A DNA stretch of 64,000 bases from Alphaproteobacteria bacterium (GCA_965209065.1 OZ242373.1:1415384-1479383); one strand, 5' to 3'. Counted from the stretch's first letter, positions 45,899 through 49,928 are shown. The notes: generated from the letters alone by a model not told the origin. Program-made: numbers and translations.

Positions 45899-46004
45899 GG
45901 GAGATACCCTCCTGTTATGGTATAATCAGAGAATTACTCTAACACATTTATTTTCTCCGCTTCAAGCAAAAAATGCTCTTTTAATTAAAAAAATAGCCGC
46001 GCCC

Positions 46005-48554
46005 CTAACCCGAAGCCGAACGCAAAAAAGACGCAGGACGCTGACCCAACAATCTGTAGTTTATGCCCCCGCCACATAAAAATGAACCCAGCAAAGCTAA
46101 GCCTATCGTGAATAATGCCACCTTAGGTAGAAAAATAAACTCCGCCAGCCACAAATACTCCACCATCCACCACGCAACCACAACGCCTATCAATAAACCT
46201 ACCAAGCTCGCCGATAAGCCCAGCACAAAATACTCCACGCCTGACGCTCGCAGAATCATTCCCCTATCCGCGCCCAATACCTTGAAAATCACACTCTCAG
46301 CCCGCTTGCGCTCGAAACTCGCCGCCTGAGACGCTATCAAAACCAATACCCCCGCTAATAACGTCCAAAAACTCGCCAGCCGACCCACCAGCGATAACTG
46401 CTCCAGCAAAGACGAAATCACCGCTAGTGCCTCGCTCGTCTCCACCAGCACAATATCCGCGAAATTACGCGATAACTCCCCGCGCGTCCGCTTGATGAGA
46501 CCCTCCTCTACACGAAAAGTGGCGAAATAACTCGCCGGTATCTCGTTGAACGGACGCGGCGAGAAGATAAACACAAAATTCATCCCTCCCTGAGACCAAT
46601 CAACCGAACGCAGATTATGTATCCGCGCCTTCACCGCAACGCCAAAAAGATTTATCGTCACGCTGTCGCCCAGCTTCAAACCCAAACCCTCCGCCACATT
46701 CGCGCTCAGCGAGACCAGAGGCGAGCCGTCATAGCCCGAATCCCACCACTCGCCCGCCGTGAGCTTGCTGTTCGGCGGCGGACGCGCGGCATAGGTCAAG
46801 CCCCTGTCTCCACGCAAAACCCACGCGATATCCTCCGCCGCTCGCTCCTTGTAGAAAGATAAAGGCTTGCCGTTGATACTCAGCAAAGGCGCGCGCAGTA
46901 AGGGAACAATGCGTATATCCTCTATCCCCTCCCTGTTTTGTAAAAAAGCCTCCAGTTTCGGCTTTTGATCCTGCTGAATGCCCGCCACAAAGAAGCTCGG
47001 CGCACGATTCGGCAGCCCGCGCTCGATTTGGTAGCTCAAATTTCCCTCAACCAGAGCTATCGCCGTTAAAAGCGATAATCCCAGCCCCAACGCCATGATG
47101 ATATTGCGGTTGTCTGAAGCAGGGCGCGTGATGTTGCTTAACGCAATCCGCCATAATGGGTTCTTAACATGCTTTATCCAGCGCAAAAACCACACAAGCA
47201 TCAGCGCCATGCCGTATAGCAGGAAAATGCTCGCCGATGCGCCCAATATAAAGTAAAGCGCAAACGAACGCTCGGGCGATAGTGCCAAAATTACCGAAAA
47301 CAGAAAAGCTACCAAAAAGCCCAAAACACCCCACCACCGAAACGATAAAGTCCGCAGAAAGCCCAGCCCTAACGGCTCTATCGCCGCGCGAAATAGATGC
47401 GAGGGCGGAGTCGCTTTCGCGTAAGCCAGCGGAATCAGGCTGAAAAGAAGCGTTATCACTAAGCCATACACGCAGACTATCCCCACAACCGAAAACGAGA
47501 AAATAGGCTCGACCGCTAAGGGCAAAAGGTCTTGAACCAGCGGCAGAGCCAGAAAAGGCGCTAAAGCACCCAGAGAAATGCCGAAAATTAACGCTCCGCT
47601 CGCCATTATCAGAATTTGCGCGAGATAGCTCGCCACAAGCGTATTCTCGCGCGCACCCAAGCATTTGAGACTCGCGAGAGTCGTCCGCCGCCGCGCAAAC
47701 CACACGCTCACCGCATTCGCTATCCCAACCCCGCTTACTAGAAAGGTCGTCAGCGCCGCTAAGGTCAAAAACATAGAGACACGCTCAACAAAACGGCGCA
47801 AAGAGGGCGAAGAATCACGATAAGTGCGAACCTCCCAGCCCGCGCGGGGGAAGGCTTGCGCCGCTCGCGCCTCAAAGTCATCACGGGCGGCGGCGGGCGG
47901 GGGAGAGCGCAAAACCAGCCGTGCGCGGTAAGTGATAAGGCTACCGAGCTGAACTAGCCCAGTCGCCGCCAACCCTTGCCGCGAAATAATCAGCTTCGGC
48001 TGAAATGGCAAGCCGTCCGCCAAGCTGTCAGGCTCTTTTTCTATCACCCCAAGCAAGCGAAAGCGGGCTTTTCCAATGGAAAAAATTTCACCAACCCTGA
48101 TATTCAACGCCGCGAGAAAGCTGGGAGCTGATATCACGCCATAAACCCCGCTTTTTCGCCCCAATAGGCTGGGCAACCCCTCTCTCTGCCCATTTTGTAG
48201 CGAAACCTCCCCGACAAGAGGGTAGGCATCATCAACCGCCTTCAACAAAACCGAGCCATTATGCTCTTTTGTCTGCGCCATCGCCAACATCGTGGCGGCA
48301 AAGGAAACCTCCCCGCTCTCTTTTTGGAAAAATGCCCGCTCCTGCCCGCTGAAAGCTAGGTGAATCCGCCGAACCTCAATGTCACCGCCGAGAATAGCCC
48401 GCCCCTCCTTCTGCAACTGCGCCGTCAGCGAGGCTGTGAAAGAATTGCTCGCCGTGAGCGTAAAACTACTCAATATCAGGCAAGCGAGCGCAATATAAAA
48501 GCCCTTGATTCCGCCACGCAGCTCGCGGAGGGCTATTTTGATGAAAAGCAGCAT
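46005..48554 (-). CDS. ybbP: ABC transporter permease with two FtsX-type modules (YbbP / LolCE / MacB-family)
   Basis: 849-aa ORF. Its ATG overlaps the stop codon of the ATPase gene (ATGA at 48552-48556). It has two blocks of four transmembrane helices, each preceded by a large periplasmic domain. The size and architecture are those of E. coli YbbP. Confidence 0.75.
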   Translation of the reverse strand: MLLFIKIALRELRGGIKGFYIALACLILSSFTLTASNSFTASLTAQLQKEGRAILGGDIEVRRIHLAFSGQERAFFQKESGEVSFAATMLAMAQTKEHNGSVLLKAVDDAYPLVGEVSLQNGQREGLPSLLGRKSGVYGVISAPSFLAALNIRVGEIFSIGKARFRLLGVIEKEPDSLADGLPFQPKLIISRQGLAATGLVQLGSLITYRARLVLRSPPPAAARDDFEARAAQAFPRAGWEVRTYRDSSPSLRRFVERVSMFLTLAALTTFLVSGVGIANAVSVWFARRRTTLASLKCLGARENTLVASYLAQILIMASGALIFGISLGALAPFLALPLVQDLLPLAVEPIFSFSVVGIVCVYGLVITLLFSLIPLAYAKATPPSHLFRAAIEPLGLGFLRTLSFRWWGVLGFLVAFLFSVILALSPERSFALYFILGASASIFLLYGMALMLVWFLRWIKHVKNPLWRIALSNITRPASDNRNIIMALGLGLSLLTAIALVEGNLSYQIERGLPNRAPSFFVAGIQQDQKPKLEAFLQNREGIEDIRIVPLLRAPLLSINGKPLSFYKERAAEDIAWVLRGDRGLTYAARPPPNSKLTAGEWWDSGYDGSPLVSLSANVAEGLGLKLGDSVTINLFGVAVKARIHNLRSVDWSQGGMNFVFIFSPRPFNEIPASYFATFRVEEGLIKRTRGELSRNFADIVLVETSEALAVISSLLEQLSLVGRLASFWTLLAGVLVLIASQAASFERKRAESVIFKVLGADRGMILRASGVEYFVLGLSASLVGLLIGVVVAWWMVEYLWLAEFIFLPKVALFTIGLALLGSFLCGGGINYRLLGQRPASFLRSASG

Positions 48555-49246
48555 CAGGTGGTGAGCCTGCCGTTATCCATCACCAAAACTCGGTCGCACC
48601 GCCGCGCGAGCGCCTCATCGTGCGTCACCAAAATCAAACAGCTATTATTCTGCTTTTGGATAGAAAAAAGCAAATCGGCAATACTATTAGAGTTTTTTTT
48701 GTCTAAATTGCCAGTTGGCTCGTCCGCAAGGAGAATATCGGGTTGCGCGATAATCGCGCGCGCCAAGCCGACCCTTTGCTGCTCCCCACCCGACATTTGA
48801 CTCGGATAGTGGTGAAGGCGGTCGGCTAACCCGACCTGCTCTAACATCACTTTCGCCCGCGCATGAGCATCACGCGCACCCAGAAATTCTAGCGGAAGAG
48901 CGCAGTTTTCAAGCGCGGTCATCGTCGGGATAAGGTGAAAAGACTGGAACACTATCCCAATATGGCGCGACCGAAAGCGCGCGCGCGCGTCCTCGTTCAT
49001 CTTAACAATATCCTCATTGGCAACAATAATGCTCCCCCCGCTTGGAGAATCCAGCCCAGCGATAAGCATAATCAAAGACGACTTGCCCGAACCACTAGGA
49101 CCCGTAATAGCAATCGACTCGTTGGCTGACGCGTCAAGGGAAATGTCGCTTAAAATTTTTATTTCGTGTGAAGGACCTTTTAGTGTAAAATCTACATTTT
49201 TCAACGAAAGGGCTTTATCAATGGCAACTTCTTTTAACTCTGTCAT
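48554..49246 (-). CDS. ybbA: ABC transporter ATP-binding protein (YbbA / LolD / MacB-NBD-like)
   Basis: Walker A GPSGSGKSSL, the signature LSGGEQQRVGLARA and Walker B ILLADEPTGNLD. The likely start is MTELKEV (ATG at 49244-49246). The tabulated ORF extends to 49330 but would overlap tesA more deeply. Confidence 0.8.
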   Translation of the reverse strand: MTELKEVAIDKALSLKNVDFTLKGPSHEIKILSDISLDASANESIAITGPSGSGKSSLIMLIAGLDSPSGGSIIVANEDIVKMNEDARARFRSRHIGIVFQSFHLIPTMTALENCALPLEFLGARDAHARAKVMLEQVGLADRLHHYPSQMSGGEQQRVGLARAIIAQPDILLADEPTGNLDKKNSNSIADLLFSIQKQNNSCLILVTHDEALARRCDRVLVMDNGRLTT

Positions 49247-49928
49247 AAGCAGGAGTATAGCACAGGTTTTCTGCCTATTGCTACTAACAGCAGGCGGCGT
49301 GGCAGCATCGGCGGAGGCGAGGCAAAACATTTTGATTTATGGCGATAGCCTGTCCGCCGGCTATGGATTAGCCTCTAATGAGGGATTTGCCCCCCAGCTA
49401 GAGCAGGCACTCAAGGCGAAGGGCAAGCGCATTAAAATATTTAACGCCAGCCAGTCGGGCGAAACAACACGCGGCGGGCTCGCGCGCTTGAAATGGACGC
49501 TCGACAACTTGCCCGCAATGCATATCGCCATTATCGAGCTCGGGGCGAACGATGCCCTGCGCACGCTATCACCGCAACGCACAAAAGAAAATTTAAGCAA
49601 AATGATAGCCATTCTACAAAAACGCAAGATAAAGGTCTTATTGACAGGCATGCTCGCCCCGCCCAATTTGGGCGAGGTCTATGGTAAAGCCTTTAACAGC
49701 CTCTACCCCGCCCTAGCGAAAAACTATAAAGTTAGGCTTTACCCCTTCTTTTTAGAGGAAGTCGCCACAAAAAGAGCCCTCAACCTAAAAGATGGCATTC
49801 ACCCTAACGCAAAGGGAGTGAAAATAATTGTTTCAAACATTATGCCTTTCGTGTTAGAAACTTTAGAATCTCGCATAAACGAGAAAGCAAACGGGGGAAA
49901 AACTAATGGAATATCGTCCTTTAGGTAG
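49221..49928 (+). CDS. tesA: SGNH/GDSL arylesterase (TesA-like acyl-CoA thioesterase I / lysophospholipase L1)
   Basis: It has a signal peptide and the ILIYGDSLSAGYGL catalytic-Ser block, followed by G…N and DGIHPN (the catalytic D-x-x-H) motifs. It is divergent from ybbA, as in E. coli tesA-ybbA-ybbP. The start was chosen at MATSFNSV (49221). Confidence 0.8.
   Translation: MATSFNSVISRSIAQVFCLLLLTAGGVAASAEARQNILIYGDSLSAGYGLASNEGFAPQLEQALKAKGKRIKIFNASQSGETTRGGLARLKWTLDNLPAMHIAIIELGANDALRTLSPQRTKENLSKMIAILQKRKIKVLLTGMLAPPNLGEVYGKAFNSLYPALAKNYKVRLYPFFLEEVATKRALNLKDGIHPNAKGVKIIVSNIMPFVLETLESRINEKANGGKTNGISSFR

What the first reader, a model, noticed from the sequence alone, without database searches (positions are those of the whole stretch)
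45899..49928. No TpsB partner in cis; giant tpsA-like genes are wired behind a YbbA-YbbP (MacB/LolCDE-type) ABC transporter with divergent tesA
TpsA genes are almost always adjacent to their Omp85-family TpsB/CdiB transporter. None of the roughly 35 other genes in this 64-kb window is an Omp85/POTRA protein. Instead the gene order on the minus strand is ybbA, ybbP, a 106-bp spacer with a promoter-like sequence, giant 2, giant 1, then a terminator. The SGNH lipase tesA runs divergently from ybbA, which is the conserved E. coli tesA-ybbA-ybbP arrangement. MacB-type transporters are known to feed periplasmic substrates to outer-membrane exit ducts. Either tpsB is encoded elsewhere, making these 'orphan' tpsA genes, or this is an unconventional coupling of a TPS cargo with a MacB-type ABC system. 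Read-through from ybbP into the giant genes is plausible because no terminator is visible in 45,899-46,004.
Basis: partly seen in the sequence, partly recalled or inferred. Interest (0 to 1): 0.6.

Follow-up and report, generated by a model that had tools for sequence, protein, structure and literature searches.

The report
Giant adhesin genes inserted beside YbbAP
Two 6,000-residue secreted-adhesin genes sit just downstream of a lipid-handling ABC transporter, but comparison with other genomes shows they were inserted into an older conserved gene cluster, so the adjacency looks like an accident of insertion; their outer-membrane transporter is most likely encoded elsewhere in the genome.

Summary
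On the minus strand the order is ybbA, ybbP, a 106-bp spacer, giant 2 (6,030 aa), giant 1 (5,897 aa) and a strong terminator, with tesA divergent from ybbA. Both giants carry a genuine TPS secretion domain, shown by Pfam, NCBIfam and a fold match to HxuA, EtpA and HMW1.

No TpsB is present. My own TpsB HMM found one beside 33 of 42 distant TPS relatives. It found none in the window, in about 10 kb and 5 kb beyond its two ends (read from a near-identical strain contig), or at five other loci of the same giant family.

The proposed link to the ABC transporter is not supported.
- In nine alphaproteobacterial genomes, tesA-ybbA-ybbP is followed directly by the BI-1 gene, with no TPS gene.
- Relatives of the giants lie in unrelated contexts without ybbAP.
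- Each giant has its own duplicated 78-bp promoter-like leader.
- The window has no MacA-type adaptor and no TolC-like duct.
- YbbAP already has a demonstrated partner, TesA (PMC12646458).

The best reading is a lineage-specific insertion and tandem duplication of unlinked tpsA-type adhesin genes served by a TpsB in trans. Unlinked tpsA genes are already known. The whole 1.69-Mb contig could not be searched, so the trans TpsB remains an inference.

The parts
49221..49928 (+). tesA-like SGNH/GDSL hydrolase. The probable start, ATG 49221, gives a Sec signal peptide, and the gene overlaps the ybbA start divergently.
   Evidence: Pfam Lipase_GDSL_2 at 7.9e-24. Best NCBIfam match is PRK10528 TesA. 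Signal peptide MATSFNSVISRSIAQVFCLLLLTAGGVAASAEA. The gene caller on strain contig L020 chose a shorter 209-aa version.
48554..49246 (-). ybbA-like ABC ATPase (230 aa as called on the strain contig).
   Evidence: Pfam ABC_tran. Best NCBIfam match is PRK10584 YbbA, 247.6 bits. Gene call from L020. Translation.
46005..48554 (-). ybbP-like type VII (MacB/FtsX-fold) ABC permease, 849 aa. Its start overlaps the ybbA stop.
   Evidence: Pfam FtsX, two stretches. NF041854 ABC_perm_YbbP matches over profile positions 21-802 of 806. The only PDB match is E. coli YbbP 9ge6, E 3.3e-53.
45899..46004 (-). ybbP-giant 2 spacer. The last 78 bp (about 45899-45976) are a leader with a promoter-like element (TTGAAG-N18-TAGAGT, TG-extended) and a ribosome-binding site (AGGAGG). 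The same leader is duplicated upstream of giant 1.
   Evidence: Sequence. Alignment with the giant 1 upstream region. The 22-mer occurs exactly twice against 0 expected. No canonical terminator found; only a weak stem plus U7.
27806..45898 (-). Giant 2, a 6,030-aa TpsA-like protein: Sec signal peptide, TPS secretion domain (about residues 30-270), then a Thr/Ala/Gly-rich repeat region.
   Evidence: ORF. Translation. PF05860 at 45.9 bits. TIGR01901 at 51.7 bits. AF2 model of residues 1-350, pLDDT 81.5. Foldseek matches to the TPS domains of HxuA, EtpA and HMW1, probability 1.0.
27688..27805 (-). Spacer between giant 2 and giant 1, holding the second copy of the 78-bp leader (TTGAAG-18-TAGAAT with TG). 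No terminator.
9994..27687 (-). Giant 1, a 5,897-aa tandem paralogue of giant 2. It is 87% identical at the amino-acid level over most of its length, 95% identical at the DNA level over the leader and TPS domain, and divergent at about residues 280-770.
9930..9957 (-). Intrinsic-terminator-like hairpin (12-bp stem, 8 GC pairs, followed by a T-run) that ends the giant-gene unit.
9099..9883 (-). BI-1/YccA-family gene (9099-9824) with its own near-consensus promoter (TTGACA-17-TATATT, 9883-9855). In other Alphaproteobacteria this gene is the immediate neighbour of ybbP.
   Evidence: Pfam Bax1-I at 3.4e-52. Promoter scan scores 11 of 12. Synteny.

Best explanation
The region holds two independent things that ended up adjacent through an insertion.

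(1) tesA, ybbA and ybbP form the conserved type VII ABC transporter and lipid hydrolase module. [quoted passage not shown] In Alphaproteobacteria this module is ancestrally followed by a BI-1/YccA-family gene.

(2) In this lineage, an uncultured alphaproteobacterium whose nearest named relatives are Parvibaculales, an ~18-kb tpsA-type giant adhesin gene landed between ybbP and BI-1 together with its own promoter-like leader. It then duplicated in tandem.

The likely pathway for each giant is as follows. The Sec machinery exports it using an N-terminal signal peptide. Its HxuA/EtpA/HMW1-like TPS domain is recognised in the periplasm by the POTRA domains of an Omp85-family TpsB. The protein is then threaded to the cell surface as a very long beta-helical fibre and probably acts as an adhesin. 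The TpsB is not encoded nearby. It is inferred to lie elsewhere in the genome and probably serves several paralogous giants.

Shown here: gene identities, the TPS fold, the absence of a cis TpsB, the insertion and the duplicated leader.
Inferred: the trans TpsB, surface display and the adhesin role.

YbbAP plays no role in secreting the giants. At most, read-through from ybbAP adds to their transcription.
For: Insertion:
- In 9 of 9 alphaproteobacterial MAG loci with enough downstream sequence (L004-L007, L009-L012, L014), the order is tesA <-> ybbA-ybbP-BI-1. BI-1 starts about 0.2-0.35 kb after ybbP in eight of these and about 0.9 kb after it in L009. None has a TPS hit.
- The tesA-ybbA-ybbP triad is present in 13 of 13 loci.

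No recurrent association:
- Among 65 fetched loci, TPS and ybbP co-occur only in the window's own strain variant.
- Giant-family relatives lie next to RNR/thiolase/Xre genes (L017, L022), next to a resolvase/SIR2/UvrD island (L018), or in tandem giant arrays (L019, L021).

Autonomy of the giants:
- A 78-bp leader with a TG-extended -10-like promoter and a ribosome-binding site is duplicated before both giants.
- There is one strong terminator after giant 1, and BI-1 has its own 11-of-12 promoter.

TpsA identity:
- PF05860 and TIGR01901 score above their cutoffs.
- The AF2 model has pLDDT 81.5, and its top PDB matches are the TPS domains of HxuA, EtpA and HMW1.

Absence of a cis TpsB is real:
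- The custom HMM was built from 10 seeds, all verified as POTRA_2+ShlB. It detects TpsB in 33 of 42 distant TPS loci. It detects none in the window or in L001-L003 and L017-L023.
- The flanks beyond the window contain ccmBCDG, miaB-like, dapF, rpsP and trmD on one side. On the other they contain DUF1329, DUF1302, hemCD, tsaD and a TetR gene.

Prior knowledge:
- YbbAP-TesA is a demonstrated complex with the same divergent, overlapping gene layout (PMC12646458).
- TPS genes are usually, but not always, in one operon, and some TpsBs secrete more than one TpsA (PMC5422565).
Against: - No TpsB from this organism was found, because the 1,687,333-bp source contig could not be searched. The trans-TpsB step is therefore inferred.
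- The genomes used for synteny are distant (YbbP 33-37% identity). The closest relatives (SdhA 80-84%) could not be inspected, so the age of the insertion is unknown.
- No strong terminator separates ybbP from giant 2, so co-transcription is not excluded.
- Flanks outside the window come from a near-identical strain contig in the same sample, not from the exact source contig.
- No mobile-element scars such as an integrase, direct repeats or a tRNA flank the giants, and their GC3 (0.48) lies within the local range. The mechanism of insertion is unknown.
Confidence: 0.77

Rival explanations
1. Functional coupling. The YbbAP MacB-type transporter takes the periplasmic giants, or helps them, and passes them to an outer-membrane exit duct, replacing TpsB.
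For: The giants lie immediately downstream (106 bp) on the same strand, with no canonical terminator between. No TpsB lies within the window or its flanks. It is established that MacB-type pumps can expel periplasmic substrates; this rests on my own knowledge and was not tested here.
Against: - tesA-ybbAP-BI-1 is conserved without giants in 9 genomes.
- Giant relatives never lie next to ybbAP.
- No MacA/HlyD-type adaptor or TolC-like duct is in the window or flanks.
- The periplasmic domain of YbbP is occupied by TesA in the solved E. coli complex, and the proposed substrates are small hydrophobic lipids (PMC12646458).
- The giants keep an intact TPS domain, whose only known role is docking to the POTRA domains of TpsB.
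Confidence: 0.03
2. Regulatory linkage only. The giants are mostly transcribed by read-through from the ybbA-ybbP promoter. They are therefore co-expressed with the envelope-lipid module without any mechanistic link in secretion.
For: No terminator-like site lies in 45899-46004 by the scan. Only a weak 7-bp stem with a large loop plus U7 overlaps the ybbP stop, and the fold z-score is -0.8. No terminator lies between the two giants either.
Against: Each giant has its own conserved promoter-like leader, and the leader was kept through the duplication. Giant 1 would need more than 18 kb of read-through. In relatives, ybbP is followed by a spacer of about 0.2-0.35 kb (about 0.9 kb in L009) and then an unrelated gene.
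Confidence: 0.15
3. The giants use no dedicated TpsB. Either a general Omp85 protein (BamA or TamA) or an unknown route exports them, or they are non-secreted relics in a small (~1.7 Mb) genome.
For: A cis TpsB is absent at every accessible locus of this giant family: the window, L017, L018, L019, L021, L022 and L020/L023. By contrast, 33 of 42 distant relatives have one.
Against: - The ORFs of 5,897 and 6,030 aa are intact, and both copies are maintained at 87-95% identity with conserved TPS motifs. This argues for selection on a working TPS signal.
- Unlinked tpsA genes served by a TpsB in trans are documented (PMC5422565).
- No precedent is known to me for a TPS domain exported without a TpsB.
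Confidence: 0.05

Closest known systems
Two-partner secretion (type Vb) exoproteins with HMW1/HxuA/EtpA-type TPS domains
   Same: N-terminal Sec signal peptide. PF05860/TIGR01901 TPS domain with an NPxG motif (LENPAGVEF). The predicted beta-helix matches the solved TPS domains 4i84, 8cpk and 2odl. A very long repetitive passenger follows.
   Different: No adjacent TpsB, whereas HMW1B, HxuB and EtpB are encoded in cis. About 6,000 aa, roughly four or more times the size of HMW1 or EtpA (sizes from my own knowledge). No Fil_haemagg (PF05594) repeats detected. Arranged as a tandem paralogue pair.
[quoted passage not shown]
   Same: A tpsA-type gene with an intact TPS domain and no tpsB beside it, and several paralogous TpsAs in one organism.
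   Different: Here the trans TpsB has not been identified. The absence of a cis TpsB appears to be a property of the whole giant family (7 loci), not of one extra copy.
YbbAP-TesA type VII ABC transporter and lipid hydrolase complex of E. coli (PMC12646458; PDB 9ge6-9ge8)
   Same: The same three genes in the same layout: ybbA-ybbP as an overlapping pair, and tesA divergent and overlapping the ybbA start. TesA has a signal peptide, and a reductase gene follows tesA (ybbO in E. coli, an aldo/keto reductase here).
   Different: Scores fall below NCBIfam's strict equivalog cutoffs (YbbP 257 bits against 999). The protein is 849 aa against 804 in E. coli. The downstream neighbour is a giant tpsA instead of BI-1.
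MacAB-TolC tripartite pump
   Same: YbbP shares the FtsX/MacB-type permease fold family, and YbbA resembles the MacB/LolD-type ATPase.
   Different: No MacA-like adaptor and no TolC-like duct in the window or flanks. In the solved complex YbbP pairs with TesA instead.
CdiA/CdiB contact-dependent inhibition systems
   Same: A large TPS-domain protein.
   Different: No cdiB. No VENN or pre-toxin motif. The C-termini of the two copies are 99% identical rather than polymorphic. There is no immunity-gene-sized ORF after either stop codon.

Membership tests
TpsA passenger of two-partner secretion (type Vb) | N-terminal Sec signal peptide | tested here: met
   MSIKEIAVKGWLSVAFLAFFCVASASA|AP in both giants. 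The AF2 model has a helix at residues 6-18 followed by the beta-helix. No dedicated signal-peptide predictor was available.
TpsA passenger of two-partner secretion (type Vb) | TPS secretion domain (PF05860 / TIGR01901) above the curated cutoff | tested here: met
   PF05860 at 45.9 and 44.8 bits against a cutoff of 33.5. TIGR01901 at 51.7 and 53.6 bits against 29.1.
TpsA passenger of two-partner secretion (type Vb) | Right-handed beta-helix TPS fold like the solved TPS domains | tested here: met
   AF2 model with pLDDT 81.5 and pTM 0.80. Foldseek PDB top 8 hits are all TPS domains or TpsAs (HxuA 4i84/4rt6/4rm6, EtpA 8cpk/8vbb, HMW1 2odl), with E 2e-8 to 8e-6 and probability 1.0. TM-scores are modest (0.3-0.5).
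TpsA passenger of two-partner secretion (type Vb) | Cognate Omp85-family TpsB (POTRA_2 + ShlB) encoded next to it | tested here: not met
   No such protein in the window, in the flanks, or at five other family loci. Positive control: the HMM finds TpsB in 33 of 42 distant loci.
TpsA passenger of two-partner secretion (type Vb) | A TpsB somewhere in the same genome, and TpsB-dependent secretion | not testable with these tools
   The 1,687,333-bp source contig cannot be fetched or scanned. Look-ups by exact protein reached only about 5-10 kb beyond the window.
CdiA (contact-dependent inhibition toxin) | Pre-toxin VENN-type motif, a variable C-terminal toxin, and an immunity gene downstream | tested here: not met
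   No VENN-like motif, and the last 300 aa of the two giants are 99% identical. No Pfam toxin or PT domains in the C-terminal halves. The stop codons are followed by a spacer/leader or by a terminator.
YbbAP-TesA type VII ABC transporter/hydrolase module | YbbP-type duplicated FtsX permease | tested here: met
   Two FtsX stretches. NF041854 matches over profile positions 21-802 of 806 at E 2.7e-76, below the equivalog cutoff. The sole PDB hit is YbbP 9ge6 at 3.3e-53.
YbbAP-TesA type VII ABC transporter/hydrolase module | Adjacent YbbA ATPase and a divergent, periplasmic GDSL hydrolase TesA | tested here: met
   The best NCBIfam matches are YbbA PRK10584 and TesA PRK10528. TesA has a signal peptide, and tesA overlaps ybbA divergently. 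The same triad is present in 13 of 13 genome loci. The layout matches PMC12646458.
YbbAP-TesA type VII ABC transporter/hydrolase module | Physical YbbP-TesA complex and esterase activity | not testable with these tools
   This needs biochemistry. A co-folding prediction was not attempted.
   No HlyD/MFP or OEP family among the window ORFs scanned or among the precomputed Pfam hits in the flanks.

The most novel reading that the evidence does not exclude
This family of ~6,000-aa TPS-domain giants never has a TpsB beside it at any of the seven accessible loci. The most novel reading still open is that it belongs to a small-genome marine alphaproteobacterium with no dedicated TpsB at all. A TPS domain would then be exported by another route, such as a general Omp85 like BamA or TamA, or an unknown partner. 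That would break the two-partner rule of type Vb secretion.
Probability: 0.05. Interest if true: 0.7.

Novelty: new member of a known kind. Interest (0 to 1): 0.2.

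Why it matters
The result removes a tempting false lead. A type Vb cargo fed by a MacB-type ABC transporter would have been a new secretion pathway, but synteny shows the adjacency comes from an insertion into the conserved tesA-ybbAP-BI-1 cluster.

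What remains is modestly useful.
- It is an example of very large, tandemly duplicated tpsA genes that are not linked to a tpsB. They take up about 36 kb, roughly 2% of a 1.69-Mb contig, in an uncultured lineage near Parvibaculales.
- It shows that the YbbAP-TesA module, with its divergent overlapping layout and a reductase after tesA, is conserved well beyond enterobacteria.

If the genome proved to lack any TpsB, the family would become much more interesting.

Tried and rejected
- Exact-protein look-ups for the ccmA-like gene, aconitase, DUF4340 and the window's own YbbP found nothing on record. The 1.69-Mb source contig is evidently not readable through that index. Flanks were taken instead from the near-identical 448,749-bp strain contig.
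- I tested whether two unannotated ORFs (265 and 320 aa) between the tandem giants in L021 were a frameshifted TpsB. Pfam gave no support, and neither did my HMM.
- P0104, a 619-aa protein with both TPS and ShlB hits, looked like a possible fused partner. It is a chimera-like TpsA N-terminus joined to a TpsB C-terminus from a distant system (28% identity) and is irrelevant here.
- I checked whether the 78-bp leader travels with more distant family members (L017-L021). It is not conserved at that distance.
- The CDI toxin reading is rejected.
- A horizontal-transfer signal from base composition was not seen. The giants' GC3 of 0.48 lies within the local range of 0.41-0.62. No tRNA or integrase lies at the borders; the only tRNA is at 60734.
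- I decided against a database-wide TpsB search that would pick out hits by the 'longest_contig = 1687333' field. Only the best 120 hits are listed, and a divergent TpsB would not rank among them.
- A self-BLASTP of giant 2 for internal super-repeats returned nothing usable.

Full report
**What is there**

The 64-kb window has two enormous minus-strand ORFs, 9994-27687 (5,897 aa) and 27806-45898 (6,030 aa). Immediately upstream on the same strand lie an 849-aa FtsX-domain permease (46005-48554) and an ABC ATPase (48554-49246 as called on a strain contig). A GDSL hydrolase gene runs divergently. The remaining ORFs of 100 aa or more that are not nested inside a larger ORF were scanned with Pfam. 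They encode housekeeping functions:
- a ccmA-like ATPase, aconitase, DUF1223
- an ABC-2/GldG-like/DUF4340 transporter cluster and a BI-1/YccA-family protein
- an aldo/keto reductase, sdhCDAB, AFG1, an alcohol dehydrogenase
- RlmN, ArgG, FolD, YggT, YbjQ, a GATase, an SDR and a BNR-repeat protein

None is an Omp85, POTRA or ShlB protein.

**Identity of the transporter module**
- The permease's best NCBIfam model is YbbP (NF041854), matched over nearly the whole profile. Its only match among all PDB sequences is E. coli YbbP (9ge6, E 3e-53).
- The ATPase best matches YbbA and the hydrolase best matches TesA. All three score below the strict equivalog cutoffs, as expected for distant orthologues.
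- The tesA ORF has an in-frame ATG at 49221 that yields a typical signal peptide. It makes tesA overlap the ybbA start in divergent orientation.
- This is the layout described for E. coli. There, YbbAP-TesA was shown by cryo-EM and co-purification to be a type VII ABC transporter and lipid hydrolase complex. [quoted passage not shown]

**Identity of the giants**
- Both start with a Sec-type signal peptide. Both contain a TPS secretion domain above the curated thresholds: PF05860 at 45.9 and 44.8 bits, TIGR01901 at 51.7 and 53.6 bits.
- An AlphaFold2 model of residues 1-350 (pLDDT 81.5, pTM 0.80) is a beta-helix. Its eight best PDB matches are all TPS domains or TpsA proteins: HxuA, EtpA and HMW1, with probability 1.0.
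- The rest of each protein has no Pfam match and is rich in Thr, Ala, Gly, Ile and Ser.
- There is no VENN-type motif. The two C-termini are 99% identical, and no immunity-like ORF follows either gene. These are not CDI toxins.
- The two genes are a tandem duplication. They are 87% identical at the amino-acid level over about 5,250 residues and 95% identical at the DNA level over the upstream leader and TPS domain. A divergent cassette lies at about residues 280-770.

**Is the missing TpsB real?**

Yes. I built a TpsB HMM from ten ORFs adjacent to distant TPS relatives. All ten were verified as POTRA_2+ShlB by Pfam. I then searched every six-frame ORF of 60 aa or more in all sequences held.
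- It found a TpsB next to the TPS gene in 33 of 42 metagenomic loci carrying distant relatives (30-48% identity). Most of the nine without a hit were short contigs or ended inside the TPS gene.
- It found nothing in the window.

The window comes from a 1,687,333-bp contig that I could not fetch. A near-identical 448,749-bp strain contig from the same sample supplied the flanks.
- About 10 kb beyond the right end lie DUF1329, DUF1302, hemC, hemD, tsaD and a TetR gene.
- About 4.8 kb beyond the left end lie ccmB, ccmC, ccmD, ccmG, a MiaB-like gene, dapF, rpsP and trmD.
- Neither flank has a TpsB.
- That strain has the same arrangement: ybbP, 107 bp, a 6,357-aa giant, a second (fragmented) giant, then BI-1.

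**Is the link to YbbAP meaningful?**

Three lines of evidence say no.

1. Synteny. A scan of GTDB species representatives with YbbP returned 13 loci. All 13 have tesA-ybbA-ybbP. In all nine alphaproteobacterial loci with enough downstream sequence, a BI-1 homologue follows ybbP. It starts about 0.2-0.35 kb downstream in eight loci and about 0.9 kb downstream in L009. None of the 13 has a TPS gene.
2. Context of relatives. The closest relatives of the giants (35-56% identity in the N-terminal 500 aa) lie elsewhere:
   - beside RNR, thiolase and Xre genes (L017, L022; same sample)
   - beside a serine recombinase/SIR2/UvrD island (L018)
   - in tandem giant arrays (L019, L021)

   None is near ybbAP, and none has a TpsB.
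3. Their own expression signals. The 78 bp before each ATG are nearly identical. They contain TTGAAG-N18-TAGA(A/G)T with an upstream TG, plus AGGAGG. The 22-mer core occurs exactly twice in the window against zero expected. The unit ends in a 12-bp-stem terminator after giant 1, and BI-1 then has its own 11-of-12 promoter.

Two further points count against a MacAB-TolC-like route. No MacA-type adaptor or TolC-type duct is encoded in the window or flanks. In the solved complex, the periplasmic face of YbbP binds TesA.

**What stays open**
- Read-through from ybbP is not excluded. The scan found no terminator in the 106-bp spacer. Folding shows only a weak 7-bp stem with a large loop followed by U7, overlapping the ybbP stop.
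- The trans TpsB is inferred, not found.
- The synteny comparison uses distant genomes (YbbP 33-37% identity). By SdhA, the organism's nearest named relatives are Parvibaculales, at about 75-76%.

**Comparison with what is known**

The review literature already states that TPS partners are usually, but not always, in one operon. It also states that some TpsBs secrete more than one TpsA or are promiscuous (PMC5422565). An unlinked tpsA is therefore a known arrangement. The giants pass the TpsA membership tests for signal peptide, TPS domain and fold. They fail only cis linkage to TpsB, and a genome-wide TpsB could not be tested. The ABC module passes the testable YbbAP-TesA criteria and fails the MacAB-TolC criteria for adaptor and duct.

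**Verdict**

The MacB-coupling interpretation is not supported. The orphan-tpsA interpretation is the best-supported reading. This is a new member of a known kind, and interest is low to moderate. The one notable residue is that the whole giant family (seven loci) lacks a neighbouring TpsB, which would matter only if the genome turned out to have none.

Noticed in passing
window 9994-45898: The two giants are a mosaic tandem duplication. The leader and TPS domain are 95% identical at the DNA level and the last ~5,250 residues are 87% identical at the amino-acid level, but about residues 280-770 are only ~60% identical with indels. This looks like a swapped or fast-evolving cassette just after the secretion domain.
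   Followed up: partly
L020:12657-22550 and L023:1-7205 (strain contig ctg50567, ERZ25069786): A co-occurring strain has a 6,357-aa first giant, against 6,030 aa in the window. Its second giant is split into ORFs of 4,777, 103 and 966 aa. Either the repeat length varies between strains or these are long-read frameshift errors.
   Followed up: no
window 49906-50949 (+): An aldo/keto reductase gene overlaps the end of tesA. This parallels the E. coli tesA-ybbO operon, in which ybbO is a short-chain dehydrogenase/aldehyde reductase. It may be a non-orthologous reductase keeping the same partnership.
   Followed up: no
window 4232-8998 (-): BI-1 is followed by an ABC ATPase, an ABC-2 permease, a GldG-like ABC_transp_aux/DUF7088 protein and a DUF4340 gene. 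This cluster is absent from the downstream sequence of all relatives' ybbP loci, up to 10 kb where the contig allows. The region downstream of ybbP has therefore been remodelled more than once.
   Followed up: partly
L018:1-9727: A shorter family member (TPS ORFs of 624, 1,265 and 701 aa) lies directly after a serine recombinase, DUF2924, a 1,194-aa SIR2_2 protein, a UvrD helicase and a DNA methylase. This suggests some family members travel on mobile or defence islands.
   Followed up: no
giant 2 residues 822/829, 1375/1382, 2430/2438, 6023/6029 (giant 1 equivalents: 698/705, 1266/1273, 2315/2323, 5890/5896): Apart from one Cys in the signal peptide, the only cysteines in these ~6,000-aa proteins are four C-x6/7-C pairs. 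The first three sit in a recurring module ('...W..C....C..P...I....') at the start of large super-repeats, and the last sits at the extreme C-terminus (LTCSTATACR). They may form disulfide-stapled loops.
   Followed up: no
window 62692-63837 and L001:5527-9991: A BNR/Ycf48-like protein at the right edge of the window is preceded, just outside the window, by DUF1302 (1,014 aa) and DUF1329 genes. This trio of outer-membrane and periplasmic genes is unrelated to the finding.
   Followed up: no
protein database: The homology search with the giant's first 500 aa did not return the giants themselves or any protein longer than 866 aa, although smaller proteins from the same contig are in the collection. 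Very long proteins seem to be missed by that index, so the family's true distribution may be underestimated.
   Followed up: no
L043:5481-10769, L046:2016-7334: Among the distant TPS relatives, at least one locus (L043, with about 5 kb of flank on each side) also lacks a neighbouring TpsB. Unlinked tpsA genes therefore occur sporadically outside the giant family as well.
   Followed up: no
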